Source of the DNA: Escherichia phage ECO07P3
Length of the DNA: 64,000 bases
Sequence record: OP172786
Reading direction: 5' to 3' (one strand)
The notes under the pieces were generated by a model. The model was given only the letters and a program-made list of their open reading frames with translations, had not been told where the DNA came from and made no database searches. The translations under genes were made by a program, and so were the position numbers. This document shows, piece by piece, positions 23,382 through 42,863 of the stretch; position 1 is the first letter of the stretch, and every line of letters begins with the position of its first letter.

Positions 23382-23684
23382 CTAAAAGAAACTTCTTTCA
23401 CAATTTTTTCCACTGAACCATGCGCTCACTGCTTTCTTAGTCTCAGGAGCAGTGTTATCCATAAACCATTCAAAGGCAGCCTTTTTATGATTCTGGAGGG
23501 CTTCTCGGGCTTTAATCTGCTCACGGTCTATTAACACTAACATATGAGCCTTTCTTGTCACCATGGGCTTCTTATGATTTTTTGAATACTCCCAGTCATT
23601 TGTCCATCGCATTGTCGTTGCGAATTGAAATACAGCTTCTTTAATCTTAGTTTCGTAAATTTCACGAGCCTTTGAGTATAACAT
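23382..23684 (-). CDS. hypothetical protein
   Basis: Track ORF trimmed to the ATG at 23684, which follows GGAGGT. Confidence 0.5.
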   Translation of the reverse strand: MLYSKAREIYETKIKEAVFQFATTMRWTNDWEYSKNHKKPMVTRKAHMLVLIDREQIKAREALQNHKKAAFEWFMDNTAPETKKAVSAWFSGKNCERSFF

Positions 23685-23785
23685 CACTACCTCCATTCAC
23701 CAGTTTAATTCTAGTCATCTTTTTGATGGCAGTCCATATAATCTATTTCTGAACTGCCTTTTTGTCATAGAAGTCCTCTTATGAA

Positions 23786-24754
23786 TTATTTCAGAAGAGT
23801 AACCTCAGCAATTTCTTCCCAACCGTTTTTGTCGGTCATAATAAAGTCAGCAAGATAAAGAGCAGTACGCAGTGAAACATTGCGTAAACGATTAACATTG
23901 ACTTTCATCCATGATAATGCTTTATAAGTTTCTTCATCAGAAAGACCGCGCTTTTGCATCATGTCAGTTGAAAGAATAACATCTTCAACCCTGACCATAA
24001 TTTCTTCATTAGTGTGAACACCCAAATCCAAATAAACTGAGCGGGACACCAATGCTTGTAAGTGTGGGGCAAGTTTAGTACCACGGTCTAATTCGCGGTC
24101 AATGTCAACGTTTGTGATAAAAACAATCGTTCCTTTAAATTCAAACTCACGGTCAATGCCTTTTTCTTCTAAGTAAGAAGATGCAGTGCTCCAGCAGACT
24201 TTACGGGTCTCTCCAGTGTCCAGAGCAGCTTTTAGAAGATTAAGAATGTCCATATCAGAGAAAACATCCACATCATCAATCAAAAGGACAGAATTCTCTT
24301 CACGATTATTCCAAAGCTGCTCATAAAGACCAATACCAGAGATTTTACCATTAATGCTTTTATATTCAATGTATCCAATATCATTTGCTTTATTTAAAGC
24401 TTTATCTAAAGAATACGTTTTACCAATACCTGCTGCGCCAGAGATAATCAATGAACGAATATTTCCGTTAATAATACCGTTCGTCATCATTCCCATAACA
24501 TTAAATCTTTTATTAATGCGGGTTTTCATATCTTCATACGATTCTTTAACTTCTTCAACTTTTACACCATCATATGAAATATCTGATTTGTAAACCCAAA
24601 CACCGCGACGTTTACCGTCAATTTCAACAAAAACTTTACCATCTCCTTGTGCATCTACCGGAGCATTATCTGGGAACCATTCTCCTAAGAGCTCAAAAGT
24701 TCCAGAGATTTCTTTACCAAAGTAGATACCCTTATTGATAGTTACAGTTTTCAT
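23786..24754 (-). CDS. P-loop/AAA-type ATPase
   Basis: Walker A GAAGIGKT and Walker B VLLIDDVD; track start is TTG, ATG at 24754 follows GGAGAATAAA. Confidence 0.6.
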   Translation of the reverse strand: MKTVTINKGIYFGKEISGTFELLGEWFPDNAPVDAQGDGKVFVEIDGKRRGVWVYKSDISYDGVKVEEVKESYEDMKTRINKRFNVMGMMTNGIINGNIRSLIISGAAGIGKTYSLDKALNKANDIGYIEYKSINGKISGIGLYEQLWNNREENSVLLIDDVDVFSDMDILNLLKAALDTGETRKVCWSTASSYLEEKGIDREFEFKGTIVFITNVDIDRELDRGTKLAPHLQALVSRSVYLDLGVHTNEEIMVRVEDVILSTDMMQKRGLSDEETYKALSWMKVNVNRLRNVSLRTALYLADFIMTDKNGWEEIAEVTLLK

Positions 24755-24788
24755 TTTATTCTCCAAATCCGTATCAGTTGATAGTTGT

Positions 24789-24818
24789 ATAGTACCATAA
24801 AGCTTTATGCTTGTAAAC
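24789..24818 (-). promoter_or_regulatory. T4-type early promoter (GTTTAC-N18-TACTAT)
   Basis: Same GTTGATAGTTGTATAGTACCA core as the promoters at 23350 and 40418. Confidence 0.55.
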
Positions 24819-24849
24819 CGTTTTGTGAAAAAATTTTTTGAAATAAAAA

Positions 24850-24867
24850 GGGGACCTCTAGGGCCCC
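24850..24867 (-). terminator. GC-rich hairpin (ggggacc tcta gggcccc) flanked by A/T runs
   Basis: Directly downstream of the 24880-25365 ORF; U-run follows on the minus transcript. Confidence 0.5.
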
Positions 24868-24879
24868 CTTTGTGTTGAT

Positions 24880-25365
24880 TTATTCCATTTCTACTATATG
24901 CATGTTCTTTTTGCTATCAAAATATATGTTTTTAACTATTAACTCAGAATTAATTGGCAGTAAAAACTCTCTTTCATAATCTACCATACAAAGATTATCA
25001 TAAAGCTTGTTAAGCTTATCATCGTCAGTTTGGCCAGATTCTTCAATTGCGATTAAATTTTCTAAAATGTCAATCATAGCAGTCGAATAGTCGAAAACGT
25101 TTGCATTTTTTAACACTACTAAAACATTAGTCATATAGCGTTCTGCCGCAAACGTTTCAGCTATATGAGACTCACTGCTAAAGGAAGTTATTCTTTTAAA
25201 TTTGATTCTCCTATTAACTTCAAACTTATAAGATAGCACTTCCTCTATTGTAAGTCCTCTAAAAAGTATGTCTTTAATCTCAAGTTTGTCTTTAATGTAA
25301 TCATTAACACGCTTATGATTAAAATCATTAATTTTGTTGCCAAGGCATTGCATTAAAATATGCAT
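24880..25365 (-). CDS. putative mono-ADP-ribosyltransferase (R / S-x-S / E-x-E motif order); function inferred
   Basis: 161-aa ORF with strong RBS GAGGAGAA; motifs LFRG (R36), ITSFSSES (S61-x-S63) and YEREFLLP (E131-x-E133) in the order and approximate spacing of ModA/ModB-type enzymes. Confidence 0.4.
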   Translation of the reverse strand: MHILMQCLGNKINDFNHKRVNDYIKDKLEIKDILFRGLTIEEVLSYKFEVNRRIKFKRITSFSSESHIAETFAAERYMTNVLVVLKNANVFDYSTAMIDILENLIAIEESGQTDDDKLNKLYDNLCMVDYEREFLLPINSELIVKNIYFDSKKNMHIVEME

Positions 25366-25411
25366 TGTATTCTCCTCAATTTTTAAAGAGCAATTAATTA
25401 ACTACACATAT

Positions 25412-25441
25412 ATTATAATATGCTTTGCGATAGAAGTAAAC
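25412..25441 (-). promoter_or_regulatory. T4-type early promoter (GTTTAC-N18-TATAAT) for the 161-aa ORF
   Basis: Minus strand GTTTAC TTCTATCGCAAAGCATAT TATAAT. Confidence 0.55.
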
Positions 25442-25470
25442 AACTTTGTGACGTCATTTTAAACAAAAAA

Positions 25471-25490
25471 AGGGAGCCCGAAGGCTCCCT
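25471..25490 (-). terminator. UUCG-tetraloop hairpin (RNA AGGGAGCCUUCGGGCUCCCU) followed by U-run
   Basis: Plus agggagcccgaaggctccct preceded by aaacaaaaaaa; directly after the nucleotidyltransferase stop. Confidence 0.65.
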
Positions 25491-25491
25491 A

Positions 25492-26505
25492 TCATTTATA
25501 ATAACTTCGGTGGTTTTCAAGATAAACCCTCTCAAGGAAGTCATCCCAGAAACTCATGTCTACTTTTTGCTGCATACCGTTCTTAGAAGCTTCAATGGAT
25601 GCTGCTTCTACTTGATCGACCACATCTTCCAAAAACTCTTGAACAGTTTTAAATGGATGCTTACCCAACTTCACGTCGAGAATAAATGAAGCATCTTGGA
25701 GTGGATAAACCAAGTCACCAGTTTTGTAAATTTCCAATAGTTGGAGTCCACCACGACAAGCATGACTCAAAGCTTTCCAGTCAATGCCCTCATTCGCTTC
25801 AGCTTTACGGGCGCGTTCACCGTATTCGGCATCAAGTTTATTCAGAGATTGCTTAAGCTCAATAAGAGAAAGTGTTGTCTGATATTTACGACCCAACACA
25901 GTGTAAAACGTTTGTGGACCTGTTTTCTCATGATTATGGAATACCCATTCGCAGAACTCGTTTTCTGGAAGACGATGCTTAATATCTTCAACTTTAGTGC
26001 GACGCTGCTTAATGGAACCGTCTTCTTGGTAATCAACCCACTGGTCAGGGATTTGATTAACTACTTTCAATACATCACGTAATGCAGCCAAACGAGAACC
26101 CTTGACACCATATTTAGAAGCTTGCTTGCGGACATATCCTAAATAAGATTTCATGTTAGTTGTATAAAAACGAGAACGATTGTCTTGGATAAATTTCCAT
26201 ACATCAGGTAAATCAGATTTAACCACTAGCTCAGGTGGAGTGTGAAGCATATCCAATGCTACAGTTTCACCATCTGCTGCTAATTTAAAGAAATACTTAA
26301 GACTATACAATTCGTGGTCAATATCATCTTTAGTGTTTTTAGATGATGTGTTGTTAGTGTTTTTACTCATATGCTCTTTAACATTTCCAATAAGAATATC
26401 GCGAGCAGGAGGAACAAAGATTTCTTTAAAATCTACATCAGATTCTGGAGTAGAAGTTCCATAAAGATGACTACCAAAATAGCTTTTCATTACTGTTTTC
26501 ATCAT
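25492..26505 (-). CDS. predicted pol-beta-superfamily nucleotidyltransferase
   Basis: N-terminal signature YFGSHLYGTSTPESDVDF (GS-x10-DVD) followed by about 280 aa of unknown function; 4-nt overlap with the upstream membrane-protein gene. Confidence 0.55.
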   Translation of the reverse strand: MMKTVMKSYFGSHLYGTSTPESDVDFKEIFVPPARDILIGNVKEHMSKNTNNTSSKNTKDDIDHELYSLKYFFKLAADGETVALDMLHTPPELVVKSDLPDVWKFIQDNRSRFYTTNMKSYLGYVRKQASKYGVKGSRLAALRDVLKVVNQIPDQWVDYQEDGSIKQRRTKVEDIKHRLPENEFCEWVFHNHEKTGPQTFYTVLGRKYQTTLSLIELKQSLNKLDAEYGERARKAEANEGIDWKALSHACRGGLQLLEIYKTGDLVYPLQDASFILDVKLGKHPFKTVQEFLEDVVDQVEAASIEASKNGMQQKVDMSFWDDFLERVYLENHRSYYK

Positions 26506-26963
26506 TCAGCCTTATATTCAATAACAGGACATACTTTAGCTTTACGCGCTTTTAAAAATTCGACGATAATAGATTTCTTTGGTTGAATAGGAGGTAAACC
26601 TTTATACGCCCTATCAATATTTTCTACATGTAAAGCATAATCCTTTTTCCATTTATAATCTTTATATTTTTCATGCAGTTGTGCAGGAATAACAAATGAA
26701 CCAATAATAAGTAAAACAAGCAAAATAGCAAGTATAAATGCTGATGGAATAAGAGTCCATAAACTACCAAAAATAAGCCATTTCTGCATGATTTCTGCGC
26801 AGATGATAGTTAGACCTGCGAGTATAGTACATCCGAAAAAAGAAACGAAAAATGTAGGAATAACAATAGACCAAAAATACTCGCACAGTGTCTTAGGTCG
26901 TTTCCATTCATCATTAAACATTTTGAATAATTTATAGTGCCAAGAGTTTTCATTAATAATCAT
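26502..26963 (-). CDS. membrane protein (two predicted TM helices)
   Basis: 153-aa ORF with hydrophobic segments IVIPTFFVSFFGCTILAGLTIICA and LIPSAFILAILLVLLIIGSFVI. Confidence 0.55.
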   Translation of the reverse strand: MIINENSWHYKLFKMFNDEWKRPKTLCEYFWSIVIPTFFVSFFGCTILAGLTIICAEIMQKWLIFGSLWTLIPSAFILAILLVLLIIGSFVIPAQLHEKYKDYKWKKDYALHVENIDRAYKGLPPIQPKKSIIVEFLKARKAKVCPVIEYKAE

Positions 26964-26965
26964 AA

Positions 26966-27487
26966 TTATCCTTTCATTGAAGGTGTAACAGTTGTTAAAT
27001 ACTTAATCATAGCTTCAGCTTCTGATTTTGATAATGAAATTTCTCCATTGTTTTGACGAATAGAAATAAAATCCGGATGACGGTCACCACCAGCTTTTAA
27101 AACACACATATAAGTATCAGTTTCATCTTCAATATTTGAAATAATTGAAGCAGTTCCGCATGAATGCGGTTTTTGATAAATCAATACGGCTTTTCTTCCA
27201 CCGTTTGACTGTTCATAAACTTTTAACACATCAAACAAATCACTTCTTTTATCAATAGCTAAGATGTTGTTTTCATCTTCAATGTTAAATCCTTCGGATA
27301 CTTCATAAAGCGTCACCCATAAATCACCTATATCGATAGTAGCATTTTCCTTTCCATGACTTTCAAGAGTATGACAAATTTTCTTGATTTCGTCATAACT
27401 CATTTTAATAATATCATCTCCTTGAATAAGGAAGATGTCATTTTTAAATTCAACACGAATTAAACCACTTTCACTTGAAATAAACAT
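26966..27487 (-). CDS. hypothetical protein, paralog A of a tandem pair
   Basis: 173 aa; shares EGFNIEDENNILAID and C-terminal SEAEAMIKYLTTVTPSM with the next ORF. Confidence 0.55.
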   Translation of the reverse strand: MFISSESGLIRVEFKNDIFLIQGDDIIKMSYDEIKKICHTLESHGKENATIDIGDLWVTLYEVSEGFNIEDENNILAIDKRSDLFDVLKVYEQSNGGRKAVLIYQKPHSCGTASIISNIEDETDTYMCVLKAGGDRHPDFISIRQNNGEISLSKSEAEAMIKYLTTVTPSMKG

Positions 27488-27493
27488 ATTTCC

Positions 27494-28051
27494 TCACTTT
27501 GAAATCATAGTTGGAATGACAGAATCAAGATAAGTCTTTAGCGCAATAGCTTCGTCTTTGGTAAATGTGACAATATGTGATCGAAAATCGTCAATTTGGC
27601 GAATAGTTAAGACATCTCCCTCTTCATAACATTTTGATACATTTAAAAGAGTTTCATCATTCTGATTGCAAGCGTTAGTAATAATAGCATTGCAATTTTT
27701 GAGCCATTTTAAACTATGTTTTCTTTCATTAGAATAATAAAAATATTTAATCTTAGCTATAAAATTATCCCAATTATTAATTGATAAGCATATCGACTCG
27801 CTTTCAATATTAAATCCTGGGCATAAAGAATAAAAATGAATTTTATGCTCATCATTAATGCTTACAATTTTATCAGTGTAAGGTTTTTCAATTTGGGTCA
27901 AATGAATAATTTCACTAGGAGTAAAATACAGCATATCGTCTTCTTGCGTCAAACGATACATATTATTTACTTTTTCTATAGCCAATTCACCAAAAAGTGA
28001 ACTAACTTCTAGTACTAATCGTTTCATATTGATTCTCTTCGGCTCACTCAC
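27494..28051 (-). CDS. hypothetical protein, paralog B of a tandem pair
   Basis: 185 aa by track (GTG start; alternative ATG at 28027); PGFNIESESICLSIN and C-terminal TKDEAIALKTYLDSVIPTM. Confidence 0.55.
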   Translation of the reverse strand: MSEPKRINMKRLVLEVSSLFGELAIEKVNNMYRLTQEDDMLYFTPSEIIHLTQIEKPYTDKIVSINDEHKIHFYSLCPGFNIESESICLSINNWDNFIAKIKYFYYSNERKHSLKWLKNCNAIITNACNQNDETLLNVSKCYEEGDVLTIRQIDDFRSHIVTFTKDEAIALKTYLDSVIPTMISK

Positions 28052-28053
28052 AA

Positions 28054-28158
28054 TTACATACTCCTTTGAATAATATCAATAATATTGTTCACCAGATTAT
28101 AAGTAAACATTGGGTAATTATATTGAATCATCACATACACAACAAACAAAACTTTCAT
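28054..28158 (-). CDS. small hydrophobic leader peptide (34 aa), putative
   Basis: Unlisted ORF MKVLFVVYVMIQYNYPMFTYNLVNNIIDIIQRSM after AAGGAG, between the early promoter and paralog B. Confidence 0.25.
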   Translation of the reverse strand: MKVLFVVYVMIQYNYPMFTYNLVNNIIDIIQRSM

Positions 28159-28186
28159 TCTCTTCTCCTTGGCAGTTGGCAAAATT

Positions 28187-28216
28187 ACTATACCATAACC
28201 TTGCCAACTTGTAAAC
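28187..28216 (-). promoter_or_regulatory. T4-type early promoter (GTTTAC-N18-TATAGT) for the nucleotidyltransferase operon
   Basis: Minus strand GTTTAC AAGTTGGCAAGGTTATGG TATAGT. Confidence 0.5.
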
Positions 28217-28381
28217 CATTAAATGACGTTTTCAATAAAATTCTGGAGTTTTGTGTGAGCATCAACCATGATTTTCATTTCTTCCTTTGCGAAAGCTGTA
28301 CCTCTTTCCCGAGAAGAATACTCATAGTCAGAAACTGCATTAGCGTATTCTTCAATTAGCTTCATTAAAAACATCTGCTTT

Positions 28382-28576
28382 TCAGTTTTCATTATTCCAC
28401 CTAATCATTTCAAGATATTGAACTAACTTAGCTTTGGATTTATCCAAATCCTTTTTAGCCGCTTCTATACCATCGTATGAATATCCTTCACAATGCTCAA
28501 CTGCCAATTGGTATGAATCTATTTCAATATCACGTGCTAATTTAATGATTTTTTCAAACTGTTCACGTGTTAGCAT
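28382..28576 (-). CDS. hypothetical small acidic protein
   Basis: 64-aa ORF, ATG at 28576. Confidence 0.45.
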   Translation of the reverse strand: MLTREQFEKIIKLARDIEIDSYQLAVEHCEGYSYDGIEAAKKDLDKSKAKLVQYLEMIRWNNEN

Positions 28577-28578
28577 AC

Positions 28579-28782
28579 TTAAACTCTCGTATTATGATCG
28601 ATAATTTCATCAAGAAACATATCTAAAGCTTCTACAGCATTATCAACTTTAGCTTCAAGTTCTTCAGCGCCTTTATTTGCAATGCCTGCCGAAAACCAAG
28701 CAAAGTCACTAAGTTCCTCGTCTGCTTTGCGAATTAAAGCTACCAATTCTTTAATTTTATCTGCTTGTTCAATACTAATCAT
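28579..28782 (-). CDS. hypothetical small acidic protein
   Basis: Track start is GTG; ATG at 28782 ([13 protein letters not shown]...) overlaps the upstream stop. Confidence 0.45.
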   Translation of the reverse strand: MISIEQADKIKELVALIRKADEELSDFAWFSAGIANKGAEELEAKVDNAVEALDMFLDEIIDHNTRV

Positions 28783-28970
28783 TATTCCACCACATATGAA
28801 AGAGAGAATATTGCACACGCCATATGAGTTGCAGCTTCATCACACATATCATAACGTTTCTTAAGAAGTTCTACAAGCTCTTCACTGGTAACTTCATCCA
28901 TGTCGACGAAAAAATCACCATTAATGATGACGTAGATATTTCCTTCTTGATTAAGTGCTTCAATTTTCAT
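28782..28970 (-). CDS. hypothetical small acidic protein
   Basis: Track ORF trimmed to ATG at 28970 after AGAGGAGAACATC; the longer track ORF would overlap the promoter. Confidence 0.45.
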
Positions 28971-28998
28971 GATGTTCTCCTCTTTATCTGATGGTTGT

Positions 28999-29028
28999 AT
29001 AGTATCACAGCTCAAATAGAAAGTAAAC
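28999..29028 (-). promoter_or_regulatory. T4-type early promoter (GTTTAC-N18-TACTAT)
   Basis: Minus strand GTTTAC TTTCTATTTGAGCTGTGA TACTAT. Confidence 0.5.
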
Positions 29029-29044
29029 CGGTAAAATGAAAAAA

Positions 29045-29060
29045 GTCTCCCGAAGGAGAC
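29045..29060 (-). terminator. UUCG-tetraloop hairpin (RNA GUCUCCUUCGGGAGAC)
   Basis: Plus gtctcccgaaggagac after the 29066-29452 ORF stop. Confidence 0.6.
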
Positions 29061-29065
29061 TAATG

Positions 29066-29452
29066 TTATTCGAGGGAAAGAAGATATTTACTTTGATAAA
29101 ACATTCCAGTAATATCATCTATTGTGCTTTGAATGGCTGGAGGCATTTCTTTGTAAATGCTGTTAGATTGGTCTAATATGCGATCAATCATTTTAATTGT
29201 GTCGGTAGGAAGTTTACTGGCATCCGGAATTGACGGCGTGTATTTTCTACCAGAATACCCCAAATATTGCTCACCAAATTTATCAATCAAATCTGGTAAC
29301 TCAGAGAAAATAAAATCGTATGCTTTGTGTCTAGCATAACTTTTAGTTTCAAAATGCGCAGAATGAAAATAAGCTTGTGCGGCCATTAATAAACCTAAGT
29401 ATTCATCTGCCTTTGAAGGTTTTCCACTTTGTGAAAAGTCGCTGAATTTCAT
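29066..29452 (-). CDS. hypothetical protein (T4 rI.-1 position)
   Basis: 128-aa ORF immediately downstream of rI. Confidence 0.55.
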
Positions 29453-29742
29453 TCAGTCTCCAATTTAATGTTCATAATTCTAGCGTATGATTGTGCCATC
29501 TCCGCGCCTCGCTCTATACATTCAAAATCGGAAGAGCACGGGTCATTTTTATAGGTCGTTCTCATAAAACTATAGAATTGTTCAGACGATTCTACGCTTT
29601 TATTTTCAAAAAGTGTATAAACGTGCCTAATACCAGATTCCATAAATTTATCAAAATGAGGATCGACATTCGCTTCAATCGATGGAGATAAAACAAATGA
29701 CAATCCTAGCATGGCAAAAAGTGCCGTTGCTTTTAAGGCCAT
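29449..29742 (-). CDS. rI: lysis inhibition regulator RI (secreted)
   Basis: 97-aa ORF MALKATALFAMLGLSFVLSPSIEANVDPHFDKFMESGIRHVY... matches remembered T4 RI, with N-terminal signal-anchor. Confidence 0.9.
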   Translation of the reverse strand: MALKATALFAMLGLSFVLSPSIEANVDPHFDKFMESGIRHVYTLFENKSVESSEQFYSFMRTTYKNDPCSSDFECIERGAEMAQSYARIMNIKLETE

Positions 29743-41841: not shown

Positions 41842-41917
41842 TGGTCGAGGCAGTAGGGATCGAACCTACGACCTAGGACTTAGAAGGTCCTTGCTCTTCC
41901 TTCTGAGCTATGCCCCG
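41842..41917 (-). tRNA. tRNA-Arg (anticodon UCU)
   Basis: 76 nt incl. CCA; manual cloverleaf: acceptor CGGGGCA/UGCCUCG, D-stem GCUC/GAGC, anticodon loop CUUCUAA, T-arm GUAGG-UUCGAUC-CCUAC. Confidence 0.85.
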
Positions 41918-41921
41918 TAAT

Positions 41922-41997
41922 TGGGGTGACCGATGGGAGTCGAACCCATGACTACGAGAATCACAATCTCGAGTTCTACCAACTGAACTACGGCCAC
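41922..41997 (-). tRNA. tRNA-His (anticodon GUG)
   Basis: 76 nt incl. CCA; acceptor GUGGCCG/CGGUCAC, discriminator C73, anticodon loop UUGUGAU, T-arm AUGGG-UUCGACU-CCCAU; no encoded G-1. Confidence 0.75.
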
Positions 41998-42111
41998 ATT
42001 AATACCTACTCCAACAATCAAGATGTCTTCACACGAAATTAAGAGAAGAGTGATCAGTTCAACCCCGATAATCGCGTCAAGTAGATATTAATGTGACAAT
42101 TGTCACAAATT

Positions 42112-42186
42112 TGGCGGACGTGATAGGATTCGAACCTATAACCAATCGCTTAACAGGCGATCGCTCTGCCATTGAGCTACACATCC
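42112..42186 (-). tRNA. tRNA-Asn (anticodon GUU)
   Basis: 75 nt incl. CCA; acceptor GGAUGUG/CACGUCC, anticodon stem AUCGC/GCGAU with loop CUGUUAA, T-arm AUAGG-UUCGAAU-CCUAU. Confidence 0.8.
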
Positions 42187-42190
42187 AAAT

Positions 42191-42277
42191 TGGTGGGGAG
42201 TGATGGAGTCGAACCACCCGAGTCGCAATGACAATGGATTTACAGTCCACACCGCTACCTCTACGGGATAACTCCCC
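42191..42277 (-). tRNA. tRNA-Tyr (anticodon GUA), long variable arm
   Basis: 87 nt incl. CCA; acceptor GGGGAGU/ACUCCCC, anticodon stem GUGGA/UCCAU with loop CUGUAAA, long variable arm, T-arm GGUGG-UUCGACU-CCAUC. Confidence 0.7.
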
Positions 42278-42290
42278 TTAATTCTTAATT

Positions 42291-42365
42291 TGGTGGCCCT
42301 GGGTGGAATTGAACCACCATCTGGCGATTATGAGTCGCTTGCTTGAACCTTCCAGCTACAGGGCC
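42291..42365 (-). tRNA. tRNA with CAU anticodon (Ile-type as in T4, or Met)
   Basis: 75 nt incl. CCA; acceptor GGCCCUG/CAGGGCC, anticodon loop CUCAUAA, T-arm GGUGG-UUCAAUU-CCACC. Confidence 0.75.
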
Positions 42366-42366
42366 T

Positions 42367-42442
42367 TGGTGCTGATTGACGGAATCGAACCGCCGACATC
42401 CTCATTACAAGTGAGTTGCTCTACCTACTGAGCTAAATCAGC
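42367..42442 (-). tRNA. tRNA-Thr (anticodon UGU)
   Basis: 76 nt incl. CCA; acceptor GCUGAUU/AAUCAGC, anticodon loop CUUGUAA, T-arm GGCGG-UUCGAUU-CCGUC. Confidence 0.85.
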
Positions 42443-42447
42443 AAAAC

Positions 42448-42537
42448 TGGCGGAGGCGATAGGATTTGAACCTATGAGTCGCCGGAGCGACTGCCGGTTT
42501 TCAAGACCGGTGCATTAAACCACTCTGCCACGCCTCC
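42448..42537 (-). tRNA. tRNA-Ser (anticodon UGA), long variable arm
   Basis: 90 nt; sequence GGAGGCGUGGCAGAGUGGUUUAAUGCACCGGUCUUGAAAACCGG... with anticodon loop CUUGAAA and T-arm AUAGG-UUCAAAU-CCUAU. Confidence 0.85.
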
Positions 42538-42539
42538 AG

Positions 42540-42613
42540 TCTCCATACAAGGATTTGAACCTTGGGCCTCCTGATCCCAAATCAGGCGCTCTACCAAACT
42601 GAGCTACACGGAG
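42540..42613 (-). tRNA. tRNA-Pro (anticodon UGG), CCA not encoded
   Basis: Acceptor CUCCGUG/UAUGGAG, anticodon loop UUUGGGA, T-arm CAAGG-UUCAAAU-CCUUG; abuts tRNA-Ser as in the T4 Pro-Ser dimeric precursor. Confidence 0.85.
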
Positions 42614-42623
42614 TAAATTAAAT

Positions 42624-42697
<74 letters not shown>

Positions 42698-42702
42698 AAA
42701 TT

Positions 42703-42789
42703 TGGTGCGAGAAGTGGGACTCGAACCCACAAGGAAATCATTCCGCAGCATTTTAAGTGCTGTGCCTTTACCAATTTGACCATTCTCGC
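42703..42789 (-). tRNA. tRNA-Leu (anticodon UAA), long variable arm
   Basis: 87 nt incl. CCA; acceptor GCGAGAA/UUCUCGC, anticodon stem CAGCA/UGCUG with loop CUUAAAA, T-arm GUGGG-UUCGAGU-CCCAC. Confidence 0.85.
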
Positions 42790-42790
42790 G

Positions 42791-42863
42791 CTGGGAATAA
42801 AGGACTCGAACCTTTGCATCCTGGAATCAAAATCCAGTGCCTTACCAACTTGGCTAATTCCCA
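42791..42863 (-). tRNA. tRNA-Gln (anticodon UUG), CCA not encoded
   Basis: Acceptor UGGGAAU/AUUCCCA, anticodon loop UUUUGAU, T-arm AAAGG-UUCGAGU-CCUUU; 1 nt from tRNA-Leu as in the T4 Gln-Leu precursor. Confidence 0.85.

What the first reader, a model, noticed from the sequence alone, without database searches (positions are those of the whole stretch)
25471..28216. Self-contained five-gene operon ending in a predicted nucleotidyltransferase: candidate accessory system
One early promoter (28187-28216) and one UUCG terminator (25471-25490) bracket, in order, a 34-aa hydrophobic leader peptide, two tandem paralogous proteins (185 and 173 aa), a two-TM membrane protein, and a 337-aa protein with the pol-beta nucleotidyltransferase signature GS-x10-DVD. 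The last two genes overlap by 4 nt. The paralogs share PGFNIESES/EGFNIEDEN and a near-identical C-terminal KxYLxxVxPxM tail. A nucleotidyltransferase coupled to a membrane protein and duplicated partners is an architecture often seen in nucleotide-signalling, toxin or exclusion modules. I cannot tell from memory whether T4 has the same genes at its nrdC.11/mobD locus.
Basis: partly seen in the sequence, partly recalled or inferred. Interest (0 to 1): 0.72.

Follow-up and report, generated by a model that had tools for sequence, protein, structure and literature searches.

The report
T-even mobD.2–nrdC.11 early gene block
This is the ordinary T2/T6-type version of the phage T4 mobD.2–mobD.1–nrdC.11 early gene block; its enzyme belongs to the known RlaP family of RNA-repair nucleotidyltransferases and shows no sign of being part of a new signalling or toxin system.

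Summary
The window is a Tequatrovirus (T2/T4-like phage). The five genes are mobD.2, mobD.1, a mobD.1 paralog, a 2-TM protein and nrdC.11. About 430 sequenced T-even phages carry the same block at over 90% identity. T4 differs only in having the mobD homing endonuclease in place of the paralog and the TM gene, and it still keeps the paralog's first five codons.

- **The enzyme:** the 337-aa protein matches Pfam RlaP (PF10127), and its catalytic G-S/D-x-D/D residues are invariant. The literature already names T4 NrdC.11 as an RlaP. Characterised RlaPs add 1–2 nucleotides to RNA 3'-OH ends. Bacterial full-length homologs of this clade lie near RtcB and Ro60.
- **Not one system:** TM-NTase adjacency is confined to one lineage. 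T4 lacks two of the genes. T2 has frameshifts in three of them yet keeps an intact NTase.

I found no support for a signalling, toxin or exclusion module. Interest is low to moderate. One side observation is a covarying hairpin embedded in the promoter.

The parts
28187..28216 (-). Early-type sigma-70 promoter (GTTTACA-17-TATAGT with an extended -10 TG) upstream of mobD.2
   Evidence: It is the best promoter-like match in 23500-29500 (10 of 12 positions plus TG). The -35 and -10 elements are conserved in T4, T2 and Mosigvirus.
28174..28209 (-). Inverted repeat (hairpin) embedded in the promoter spacer and -10 region
   Evidence: Reported as I8 by the repeat finder. The RNA fold is -19.2 kcal/mol, z -5.1. 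The arms differ in sequence but stay complementary in T4, Mosigvirus, L033 and L022.
28054..28158 (-). mobD.2 homolog, a 34-aa conserved small protein
   Evidence: phrog_3515, E 6.5e-22. Orthologs occur in T4, T2, Mosigvirus, Jiaodavirus and other lineages, with the conserved motif VQYNxPxFTYNxVN.
27494..28051 (-). mobD.1 ortholog (185 aa), T4_y05I family, PUR/Whirly-like model
26966..27487 (-). Tandem paralog of mobD.1 (173 aa). It is absent from T4 except for its first 5 codons.
   Evidence: It matches the same two Pfam domains and is 28% identical to the 185-aa copy. It is present at 80% identity or more in about 433 phage records. T4 retains the SD and the MFISS codons and then diverges into mobD.
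26502..26963 (-). 2-TM membrane protein (153 aa) with conserved cytoplasmic N- and C-terminal motifs. It overlaps the NTase start by 4 nt.
   Evidence: Hydropathy profile. phrog_944, E 3.2e-50, with no Pfam family. W8, H9, L26, C27, Y29, K143 and C145 are invariant in 24 diverse homologs. There are 441 representatives at the 50%-identity cluster level.
25492..26505 (-). nrdC.11 ortholog (337 aa), an RlaP-family pol-beta nucleotidyltransferase
   Evidence: It is 98% identical to T4 and T2 NrdC.11. Pfam RlaP scores 44.5 bits against a cutoff of 23, and 11 of 11 diverse homologs match. G11, S12, D23, D25 and D63 are invariant in 87 of 87 sequences, and D85 is D or E.
25471..25490 (-). Intrinsic terminator (8-bp stem, UUCG loop, U-run)

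Best explanation
The block is the mobD-free form of the T-even phage early transcription unit mobD.2 - mobD.1 - (mobD.1 paralog) - (2-TM protein) - nrdC.11. This is the majority form and probably the ancestral one. It is a non-essential stretch of neighbouring accessory genes, not one integrated machine.

**The enzyme.** The only enzyme is NrdC.11, an RlaP-family (PF10127) pol-beta nucleotidyltransferase. I infer that it works like the characterised bacterial RlaPs:
- it adds one or two nucleotides, without a template, to the 3'-OH of broken RNA;
- this restores a nucleotide that host ribotoxins such as the RloC anticodon nuclease have trimmed from tRNA;
- the phage's own end-healing and sealing enzymes (Pnk, Rnl1/Rnl2, encoded elsewhere in T-even genomes) can then rebuild a functional tRNA.

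**The other genes.** The two y05I-family paralogs are modelled as three-repeat PUR/Whirly-like single-stranded nucleic-acid-binding proteins. They probably dimerise through the C-terminal repeat. Their gene is evolutionarily coupled to the 2-TM protein gene, whose conserved His/Cys-bearing N and C tails face the cytoplasm. This pair probably has its own function, still unknown, that does not depend on the NTase.

**Shown:** gene identities, synteny, family membership by sequence, conserved catalytic residues, and RtcB/Ro60 neighbourhoods of bacterial homologs.

**Inferred:** RNA substrate, role against ribotoxins, nucleic-acid binding, and dimerisation.
For: **Identity and synteny**
- 620 phage records match the 3.1-kb region, and 428 of them cover at least 80% of it at more than 90% identity.
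- T4 and T2 annotations name mobD.2, mobD.1 and nrdC.11.
- In T4, window 26507-27468 is replaced by mobD. T4 still retains the first 5 codons of the paralog.
- mobD at 95% identity or more is in only about 47 records, against about 433 for the paralog.

**NTase family**
- Pfam RlaP, E 2e-11, above the gathering score. 11 of 11 diverse homologs match. phrog_388, 'nucleotidyltransferase'.
- The catalytic residues are invariant across 87 homologs.
- The RlaP preprint names T4 NrdC.11 as a member (cluster 5). It shows that RlaPs add 1-2 NMP to RNA 3'-OH and not to DNA.
- PMC7824862 predicts that RlaP restores nucleotides removed by RloC before ligation.
Phage phiM12 has an RNA ligase about 3 kb upstream.

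**Independence of the parts**
- T4 lacks the TM gene and the paralog.
- T2 has frameshifts in mobD.1, the paralog and the TM gene, but its NTase is intact.
- TM-NTase overlap occurs in only 16 of 48 loci, and 310-1827 nt separate them in the rest.
- In Aeromonas phages the two genes lie about 90 kb apart, and 59 of 80 TM-anchored loci have no NTase within 6 kb.

**y05I-TM coupling.** In 39 of 40 loci the y05I gene ends -11 to +28 nt from the TM start.

**Non-essential.** nrdC.11-mobD.3 was lost in viable genome-reduced T4.
Against: - No biochemical or genetic data exist for NrdC.11 itself. The preprint calls its function unknown.
- My AF2 model of the NTase was poor (pLDDT 55, N-terminal 100 residues below 50), so the fold was not confirmed structurally.
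- Profile searches found no solved structure.
- The Pfam match covers only the N-terminal 130 residues.
- No RNA ligase or Pnk gene lies in this 64-kb window, so association with the repair enzymes in this genome rests on general knowledge of T-even phages.
- Tight spacing, the 4-nt overlap and a conserved gene order across Tequatro-, Mosig- and Dhakavirus could still reflect a functional link among all the genes.
Confidence: 0.6

Rival explanations
1. The five genes form one integrated accessory system. In this reading, the PUR-like paralogs bind a single-stranded RNA or DNA substrate, the 2-TM protein tethers them at the inner membrane, and the NTase modifies the bound 3' end. The purpose would be to repair or mark RNA at the membrane, or to counter a membrane-associated host defence.
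For: - All five genes are on the same strand with very short or overlapping intergenic gaps. They are bracketed by one strong promoter and one terminator.
- The order y05I-TM-NTase is kept in Tequatro-, Mosig- and Dhakavirus. In Jiaodavirus-like and related phages the three genes stay within 1.8 kb of each other.
- A nucleic-acid-binding fold next to an RNA-end-modifying enzyme is a plausible functional match.
Against: - T4 keeps the NTase but lacks the TM gene and one paralog.
- T2 keeps the NTase with frameshifts in the other three genes.
- 40 of 88 NTase loci have neither TM nor y05I within 5 kb.
- 59 of 80 TM loci have no NTase within 6 kb. In Aeromonas phages both genes exist but lie about 90 kb apart.
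- Bacterial homologs of the NTase pair with RtcB and Ro60, not with TM or PUR-like genes.
- Gene order is broadly conserved throughout T4-like genomes, so adjacency is weak evidence.
Confidence: 0.15
2. This is the first reader's idea: a nucleotide-second-messenger, toxin or superinfection-exclusion module. The NTase would make or destroy a signalling nucleotide, or nucleotidylate a target. The membrane protein would be the effector.
For: - An NTase next to a small membrane protein superficially resembles CBASS-like or abortive-infection architectures.
- The genes are early-expressed and dispensable.
Against: - The NTase falls in RlaP (PF10127), not in the CD-NTase, MNT or other signalling families.
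- There is no credible PADLOC match. The only one is Orf5, E 0.0021, 15 bits, for the 185-aa protein.
- The block has no HEPN, effector or sensor domains.
- Characterised RlaPs extend RNA 3' ends by 1-2 nt.
- The TM protein is mostly found away from any NTase.
Confidence: 0.05
3. The y05I proteins are transcription or mRNA regulators of this very unit, as the Pfam label 'putative transcription factor' suggests. They would act on the hairpin-forming palindrome that overlaps the promoter, and the NTase would be an unrelated passenger gene.
For: - A 13-15 bp inverted repeat embraces the -10 element, and its arms covary across lineages.
- PUR and Whirly proteins bind single-stranded, melted or hairpin DNA and RNA. 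This is general knowledge, supported here only by the fold similarity.
Against: - There is no direct evidence of binding.
- L022 and the T2 locus keep the hairpin but have only a C-domain-only or a fragmented y05I.
- Moon-like phages (L025-L028) have a y05I C-domain gene but no hairpin.
- The G·U-compatible mismatches in T2 point to an RNA structure in read-through transcripts, not to a DNA operator.
Confidence: 0.1

Closest known systems
Phage T4 NrdC.11 (T4p095) and the T4 nrdC.11-mobD-mobD.1-mobD.2 interval
   Same: The 337-aa protein is 98% identical to T4 and T2 NrdC.11. mobD.1 (86% identical) and mobD.2 are one-to-one orthologs. The promoter and terminator are shared.
   Different: T4 carries the HNH homing endonuclease mobD in place of the 173-aa paralog and the 2-TM gene. 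T2, T6 and most Tequatroviruses look like this window. None of the T4 genes has an experimentally known function.
Bacterial RlaP (PF10127) nucleotidyltransferases PfRlaP and PaRlaP from RtcB operons (bioRxiv 10.64898/2025.12.29.696909)
   Same: Both belong to the same Pfam family and carry the same G-S / D-x-D / D catalytic signature. NrdC.11 is listed as a member (cluster 5). Bacterial homologs of the NrdC.11 clade also sit next to RtcB and Ro60.
   Different: They fall in different sequence clusters (cluster 5 against cluster 1a). The Pfam match covers only the N-terminal domain. No activity has been measured for the phage enzyme. In this phage it is not adjacent to a ligase, and the repair partners would be 5'-P ligases (Rnl1/Rnl2), not RtcB.
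Pur-alpha, Whirly and MRP1/MRP2 single-stranded nucleic-acid-binding proteins
   Different: There is no sequence similarity (4-11% identity) and no Pfam PurA or Whirly hit. Foldseek found nothing significant. Nucleic-acid binding is untested. The family is restricted to T4-like phages.
T4 Pnk-Rnl1 tRNA repair pathway that counters the PrrC anticodon nuclease
   Same: It is the same biological theme, phage repair of host-cleaved tRNA. RlaP is predicted to add back a trimmed nucleotide before ligation.
   Different: NrdC.11 has never been shown to take part in this pathway. Pnk and Rnl1 are encoded elsewhere, not in this window.

Membership tests
RlaP / PF10127 (RNA-ligase-associated pol-beta NTase) | Match to the family HMM above the curated gathering score | tested here: met
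   The score is 44.5 bits against a cutoff of 23, E 2e-11. 11 of 11 diverse homologs match, best E 2.1e-16. Only residues 7-135 align.
RlaP / PF10127 (RNA-ligase-associated pol-beta NTase) | Pol-beta catalytic signature: hG[GS], Dx[DE] and a third conserved carboxylate | tested here: met
   G11, S12, D23, D25 and D63 are invariant in 87 of 87 homologs. D85 is D in 85 and E in 2.
RlaP / PF10127 (RNA-ligase-associated pol-beta NTase) | NTase fold plus a C-terminal helical domain forming a cleft, as in the PfRlaP crystal structure | tested here: inconclusive
   The AF2 model has pLDDT 55. Residues 1-100 are below 50, and only the helical C-terminal half is moderately confident. No PDB sequence hit was found.
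RlaP / PF10127 (RNA-ligase-associated pol-beta NTase) | Genomic association with RNA ligase or RNA-repair genes | tested here: met
   This holds for the clade. RtcB lies within 5 kb in 12 of 80 bacterial loci and Ro60/TROVE in 6 of 80. An RNA ligase lies 3 kb upstream in phiM12. It does not hold locally: no ligase or Pnk was seen among the ORFs of 250 aa or more in the 64-kb window.
RlaP / PF10127 (RNA-ligase-associated pol-beta NTase) | Adds 1-2 NMP to RNA 3'-OH, not to DNA | not testable with these tools
   This has been shown only for PfRlaP and PaRlaP.
T4_y05I family (PF24449 + PF24448) | Both N- and C-terminal domain HMMs above the gathering score | tested here: met
   185 aa: 137.3 and 75.2 bits. 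173 aa: 111.7 and 82.9 bits.
PUR / Whirly-like ssDNA/RNA-binding fold | Repeated beta-beta-beta-beta-alpha units with structural similarity to Pur-alpha or Whirly | tested here: met
PUR / Whirly-like ssDNA/RNA-binding fold | Sequence membership in the PurA or Whirly Pfam families | tested here: not met
   Only the T4_y05I domains were found. Identity to the structural hits is 4-11%.
Anti-phage defence / signalling NTase systems (CBASS CD-NTase, MNT-HEPN and similar) | Match to a defence-system protein model, or a partner effector, HEPN or sensor domain | tested here: not met
   There are no PADLOC hits for the NTase, the TM protein or the 173-aa protein. The only hit is a 15-bit chance-level one for the 185-aa protein. 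Pfam shows no effector domains.
T4 mobD homing-endonuclease locus | Presence of the HNH endonuclease between mobD.1 and nrdC.11 | tested here: not met
   The window has the paralog and the TM gene there instead. mobD at 95% identity or more is in only about 47 records.

The most novel reading that the evidence does not exclude
The PUR/Whirly-like y05I proteins (a heterodimer of the two paralogs), the His/Cys-motif 2-TM anchor and the RlaP NTase could cooperate as a membrane-tethered device. It would repair RNA ends or counter ribotoxins, and would be specific to enterobacterial T-even phages. Its expression would be tuned by the covarying hairpin that overlaps the promoter. This would be a phage counter-defence module with no described equivalent.
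Probability: 0.12. Interest if true: 0.6.

Novelty: already known. Interest (0 to 1): 0.3.

Why it matters
As a genome-scan finding it is ordinary. The genes are catalogued in hundreds of T-even genomes, and the enzyme's family is named in the literature.

Its residual value is as a pointer for experiments. NrdC.11 is a conserved but untested candidate for the missing nucleotide-restoring step in phage tRNA repair against RloC-type anticodon nucleases.

Three details seen here are cheap to test and are not, to my knowledge, described:
- the PUR-like fold of the y05I proteins;
- the tight pairing of the y05I and TM genes;
- the promoter-embedded hairpin whose arms covary.

Tried and rejected
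- **AF2 model of the NTase.** I used a 21-sequence alignment of homologs at 78% identity or more.
- **Searches of PDB sequences.** Single-sequence and profile searches with the NTase returned only chance hits.
- **Foldseek of the y05I model against the PDB.** Nothing significant. The afdb_sample library was unavailable.
- **Family libraries.** NCBIfam gave no hit for any protein. PADLOC gave none that is credible.
- **Homolog search for the TM protein.** The search for homologous proteins reached only 12 close relatives. The exhaustive phmmer search found 441 cluster representatives, but without annotation or context.
- **TM-anchored locus search.** A 24-sequence alignment failed because it had no conserved stretch. 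A 7-sequence subset worked.
- **Neighbours of the TM gene.** I looked for a universal neighbour across 80 viral loci. None was found beyond the Tevenvirinae syntenic block.
- **Bacterial NTase loci.** Only RtcB and Ro60 recur. There is no TM or PUR-like partner.
- **Rfam.** Only the tRNA cluster at 41.8-42.9 kb was found, and nothing in the block.
- **Readings considered and rejected.** A leader-peptide or attenuator role for the 34-aa ORF is rejected because it is a conserved protein. A CBASS or toxin-antitoxin reading is rejected because the family is wrong and no partner domains are present.
Full report
**What is there**

On the - strand between 28216 and 25471 lie five ORFs:
- 34 aa at 28054-28158;
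- 185 aa at 27494-28051, with a GTG start preceded by AAGGAG;
- 173 aa at 26966-27487;
- 153 aa at 26502-26963;
- 337 aa at 25492-26505.

The last two overlap by 4 nt (ATGA). The promoter-like site at 28215..28187 (TTTACA-17-TATAGT with TG) is the best match in a 6-kb scan. The hairpin at 25490..25471 (8-bp stem, TTCG loop, T-run) is a clean intrinsic terminator.

The 185- and 173-aa proteins are paralogs, 28% identical with E 9e-11. They share the GFNIE motif and the KxYLxxVxPxM tail, and a 32-nt DNA repeat 525 nt apart still marks the duplication. The 153-aa protein has two hydrophobic segments at about residues 29-60 and 62-98, flanked by basic N- and C-terminal tails. The 337-aa protein carries G11-S12-x10-D23-V-D25.

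Two details need correcting:
- **The 34-aa ORF is not a leader peptide.** It is not strongly hydrophobic. It is a conserved small protein, MobD.2 (phrog_3515), with orthologs in several genera that keep the amino-acid motif VQYNxPxFTYNxVN despite nucleotide divergence.
- **The unit is not insulated from upstream transcription.** No terminator lies between the previous one (29061..29044) and this promoter. A weaker GTTTAC/TACTAT site at about 29030 could drive mobD.5-mobD.2a and read through.

**Where it comes from**

The 3.1-kb region matches 620 phage records. Of these, 428 cover at least 80% of it at more than 90% identity, and nearly all are Escherichia, Shigella or Yersinia Tequatroviruses. 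The best match is phage ECO07P2 at 98.5%.

In the T4 and T2 reference annotations the genes are mobD.2, mobD.1 and nrdC.11. A blastn comparison against T4 gives three results:
- window 25436-26506 corresponds to nrdC.11;
- window 27469-29500 corresponds to mobD.1 through rI.-1;
- window 26507-27468, holding the 2-TM gene and the 173-aa paralog, is replaced in T4 by the 808-bp segment carrying the HNH homing endonuclease mobD.

T4 still keeps the Shine-Dalgarno sequence and the first five codons (MFISS) of the paralog before it diverges. T4 is therefore the derived form.

The record counts agree:

| Gene | Phage records |
|---|---|
| mobD at 95% identity or more | about 47 |
| 173-aa paralog at 80% identity or more | about 433 |
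| 2-TM protein | 922 |
| mobD.1 | 728 |
| NTase | 1513 |

The NTase records span Escherichia, Klebsiella, Aeromonas, Acinetobacter, Vibrio and Sinorhizobium phages. The T4 interval nrdC.11-mobD.3 was lost in viable genome-reduced T4 (PMC9825161), so the block is dispensable in the laboratory.

**The nucleotidyltransferase**

Pfam places the 337-aa protein in RlaP (PF10127, 'RNA repair pathway DNA polymerase beta family') at 44.5 bits against a cutoff of 23. All 11 diverse homologs I scanned match the same family. PHROGs calls it a nucleotidyltransferase.

Across 87 homologs with 37-99% identity, G11, S12, D23, D25 and D63 are invariant, and D85 is always acidic.

A 2025 preprint (10.64898/2025.12.29.696909) reports three relevant things:
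- it explicitly places T4 NrdC.11 in the PF10127 similarity network (cluster 5), with function unknown;
- it shows that two Pseudomonas RlaPs add one or two NMPs to RNA 3'-OH ends, prefer a cleaved-tRNA mimic, and do not act on DNA;
- it proposes that RlaP restores a nucleotide removed by 'smart' ribotoxins such as RloC before ligation.

The same prediction appears in PMC7824862.

I added independent context evidence. Full-length bacterial homologs of the NrdC.11 clade (30-41% identity) have RtcB within 5 kb in 12 of 80 loci and a Ro60/TROVE protein in 6 of 80. Pfam confirmed both assignments. Phage phiM12 has an RNA ligase about 3 kb upstream of its copy.

My AF2 model, built from a shallow alignment, was poor (pLDDT 55). 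No solved structure is detectable by sequence.

**The paralogs and the membrane protein**

Both paralogs carry the Pfam T4_y05I N and C domains. The family appears confined to T4-like phages, with 77 clusters.

The 2-TM protein has no Pfam family but belongs to phrog_944. It has 441 representatives at the 50%-identity cluster level. In 24 diverse homologs the TM hairpin is variable. The cytoplasmic tails keep invariant W8, H9, L26, C27, Y29, K143 and C145, which hints at a small metal-binding module built from both tails. That is inference.

**Is it one system?**

I anchored 88 loci on the NTase. The results:
- 48 loci have the TM gene upstream within 5 kb, and 40 have neither TM nor y05I.
- TM overlaps or abuts the NTase in only 16 of those 48. 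These are Tequatro-, Mosig- and Dhaka-like phages with 76% or more NTase identity.
- In the rest, 310-1827 nt (one to three other genes) intervene.
- By contrast, in 39 of the 40 loci that have both, a y05I gene ends -11 to +28 nt from the TM start. Often it is only a 70-85-aa C-domain version.

Anchoring on the TM family instead gave a similar picture. 59 of 80 viral loci have no NTase or y05I within 6 kb. These include 350-kb jumbo phages, and Aeromonas phages in which the NTase lies about 90 kb away on the same genome. No other universal TM neighbour emerged.

Natural variants argue the same way. T4 lacks the TM gene and one paralog. T2 has frameshifts in mobD.1, the paralog and the TM gene, yet keeps a 98%-identical intact NTase.

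The tight evolutionary unit is therefore y05I(C-domain)-TM. The NTase is a syntenic neighbour in one lineage. No PADLOC model matches credibly, and no effector, HEPN or sensor domains are present.

**Most likely mechanism**

- **NrdC.11** probably works like its characterised relatives, adding one or two nucleotides to RNA 3'-OH ends. In T-even phages the natural partners would be the Pnk/Rnl1 end-healing and sealing enzymes (established knowledge, encoded outside this window). The pathway would serve to defeat anticodon nucleases that trim a nucleotide.
- **The y05I proteins** probably bind single-stranded nucleic acid and dimerise through the third repeat, so the two paralogs may heterodimerise.
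- **The TM protein** may anchor or partner them.

The second and third points are inferences. I rate the identity and family assignment at about 0.95, the RNA-repair role at about 0.5, and an integrated five-gene system at about 0.15.

**Side observation**

The promoter upstream of mobD.2 is embedded in a 13-15 bp inverted repeat whose loop holds part of the -10 element. The arm sequences differ but remain complementary across lineages:

| Lineage | Arms |
|---|---|
| window | AGTTGGCAA / TTGCCAACT |
| T4 | AGTTGACAAGAT / ATCTTGTCAACT |
| Mosigvirus | TTGGTAGGACT / AGTCCTACCAA |
| L033 | GAGAGGGCAT / ATGCCCTCTC |
| L022 | GATGAGATA / TATCTCATC |

In T4 the G-to-A change in one arm is compensated by a C-to-T change in the other. 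The RNA folds are -19 to -21 kcal/mol with z from -4.6 to -6.1 in four lineages, and weaker in L022 (-13.2 kcal/mol, z -2.4). Moon-like phages lack the hairpin. The mismatches in T2 are G·U-compatible, which favours an RNA structure in read-through transcripts. Its function is unknown.

**Verdict**

The block is a well-populated, already catalogued T-even gene set, and its enzyme belongs to a named family with a published mechanistic proposal. Interest is low to moderate. It rests on the untested role of NrdC.11 in phage RNA repair and on the three small side observations.

Noticed in passing
window 28174-28209 (- strand), overlapping the promoter at 28187-28216: A 13-15 bp inverted repeat encloses the -10 element of the mobD.2 promoter. 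The arms have different sequences but stay complementary in Tequatrovirus, T4 (with a compensatory G>A / C>T change), Mosigvirus and two further lineages (L033, L022). The RNA fold energy is -19 to -21 kcal/mol with z from -4.6 to -6.1 in four lineages, and weaker in L022. Moon-like phages lack it. No U-tract follows the stem, so it is not a terminator.
   Followed up: partly
window 24847-25440 (- strand): ORF 24880-25365, promoter 25440..25412, terminator 24871..24847: A 161-aa ModA/ModB-like ADP-ribosyltransferase (phrog_832, E 1.4e-23, no Pfam hit) sits as a one-gene cassette with its own promoter and terminator between nrdC.11 and nrdC.10. T4 lacks it at this site. T2 has it, but it appeared in only 4 of 88 NTase-anchored loci.
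   Followed up: partly
window 26502-26963 and homologs (alignment A7): In the 2-TM protein family the membrane hairpin is variable. W8, H9, L26, C27, Y29, K143 and C145 in the cytoplasmic N and C tails are invariant, which suggests a small His/Cys (metal?) module assembled from both tails. The family has 441 clusters at 50% identity, including jumbo and marine phages, and has no Pfam model.
   Followed up: partly
L005 2096-2814, L022, L024-L037 and other loci (NTase-anchored viral loci): A y05I gene, often only a 70-85-aa C-domain version, ends -11 to +28 nt from the start of the 2-TM gene in 39 of 40 loci that have both. This linkage is much tighter than that between the TM gene and the NTase.
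   Followed up: yes
L002 (phage T2), region corresponding to window 26500-28050: T2 carries paired frameshift indels in mobD.1 (-2 and -1) and in the paralog (-1 and -2), and a -2 indel near the 5' end of the TM gene. nrdC.11 stays intact. Several independent T2 records show the same 92.7% match.
   Followed up: partly
L120, L135, L136, L143, L149, L159, L125 and other bacterial genome loci: Full-length NrdC.11-like proteins (30-41% identity) occur in many bacterial genomes and MAGs. RtcB lies within 5 kb in 12 of 80 loci and Ro60/TROVE-vWA in 6 of 80, often in TROVE-RtcB-NTase order.
   Followed up: partly
window 23786-24766 (- strand): nrdC.10 is a 326-aa P-loop/AAA-like protein with weak Pfam AAA and STAND hits (phrog_1250, function unknown). 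It is conserved 1-3 kb downstream of the NTase in 41 of 88 loci. Various records mislabel it 'helicase loader'.
   Followed up: no
window 41845-42863 (- strand): A cluster of 11 tRNA genes (Rfam RF00005), one of them barely above the gathering score (30.2 bits against 29). This is the usual T-even tRNA region.
   Followed up: no
public annotations of the orthologs: Annotation errors are widespread. NrdC.11 orthologs are often named 'thioredoxin'. mobD.1 is named 'molybdopterin-guanine dinucleotide biosynthesis protein MobD'. The TM protein is named 'polynucleotide kinase' in phage ESCO10.
   Followed up: no
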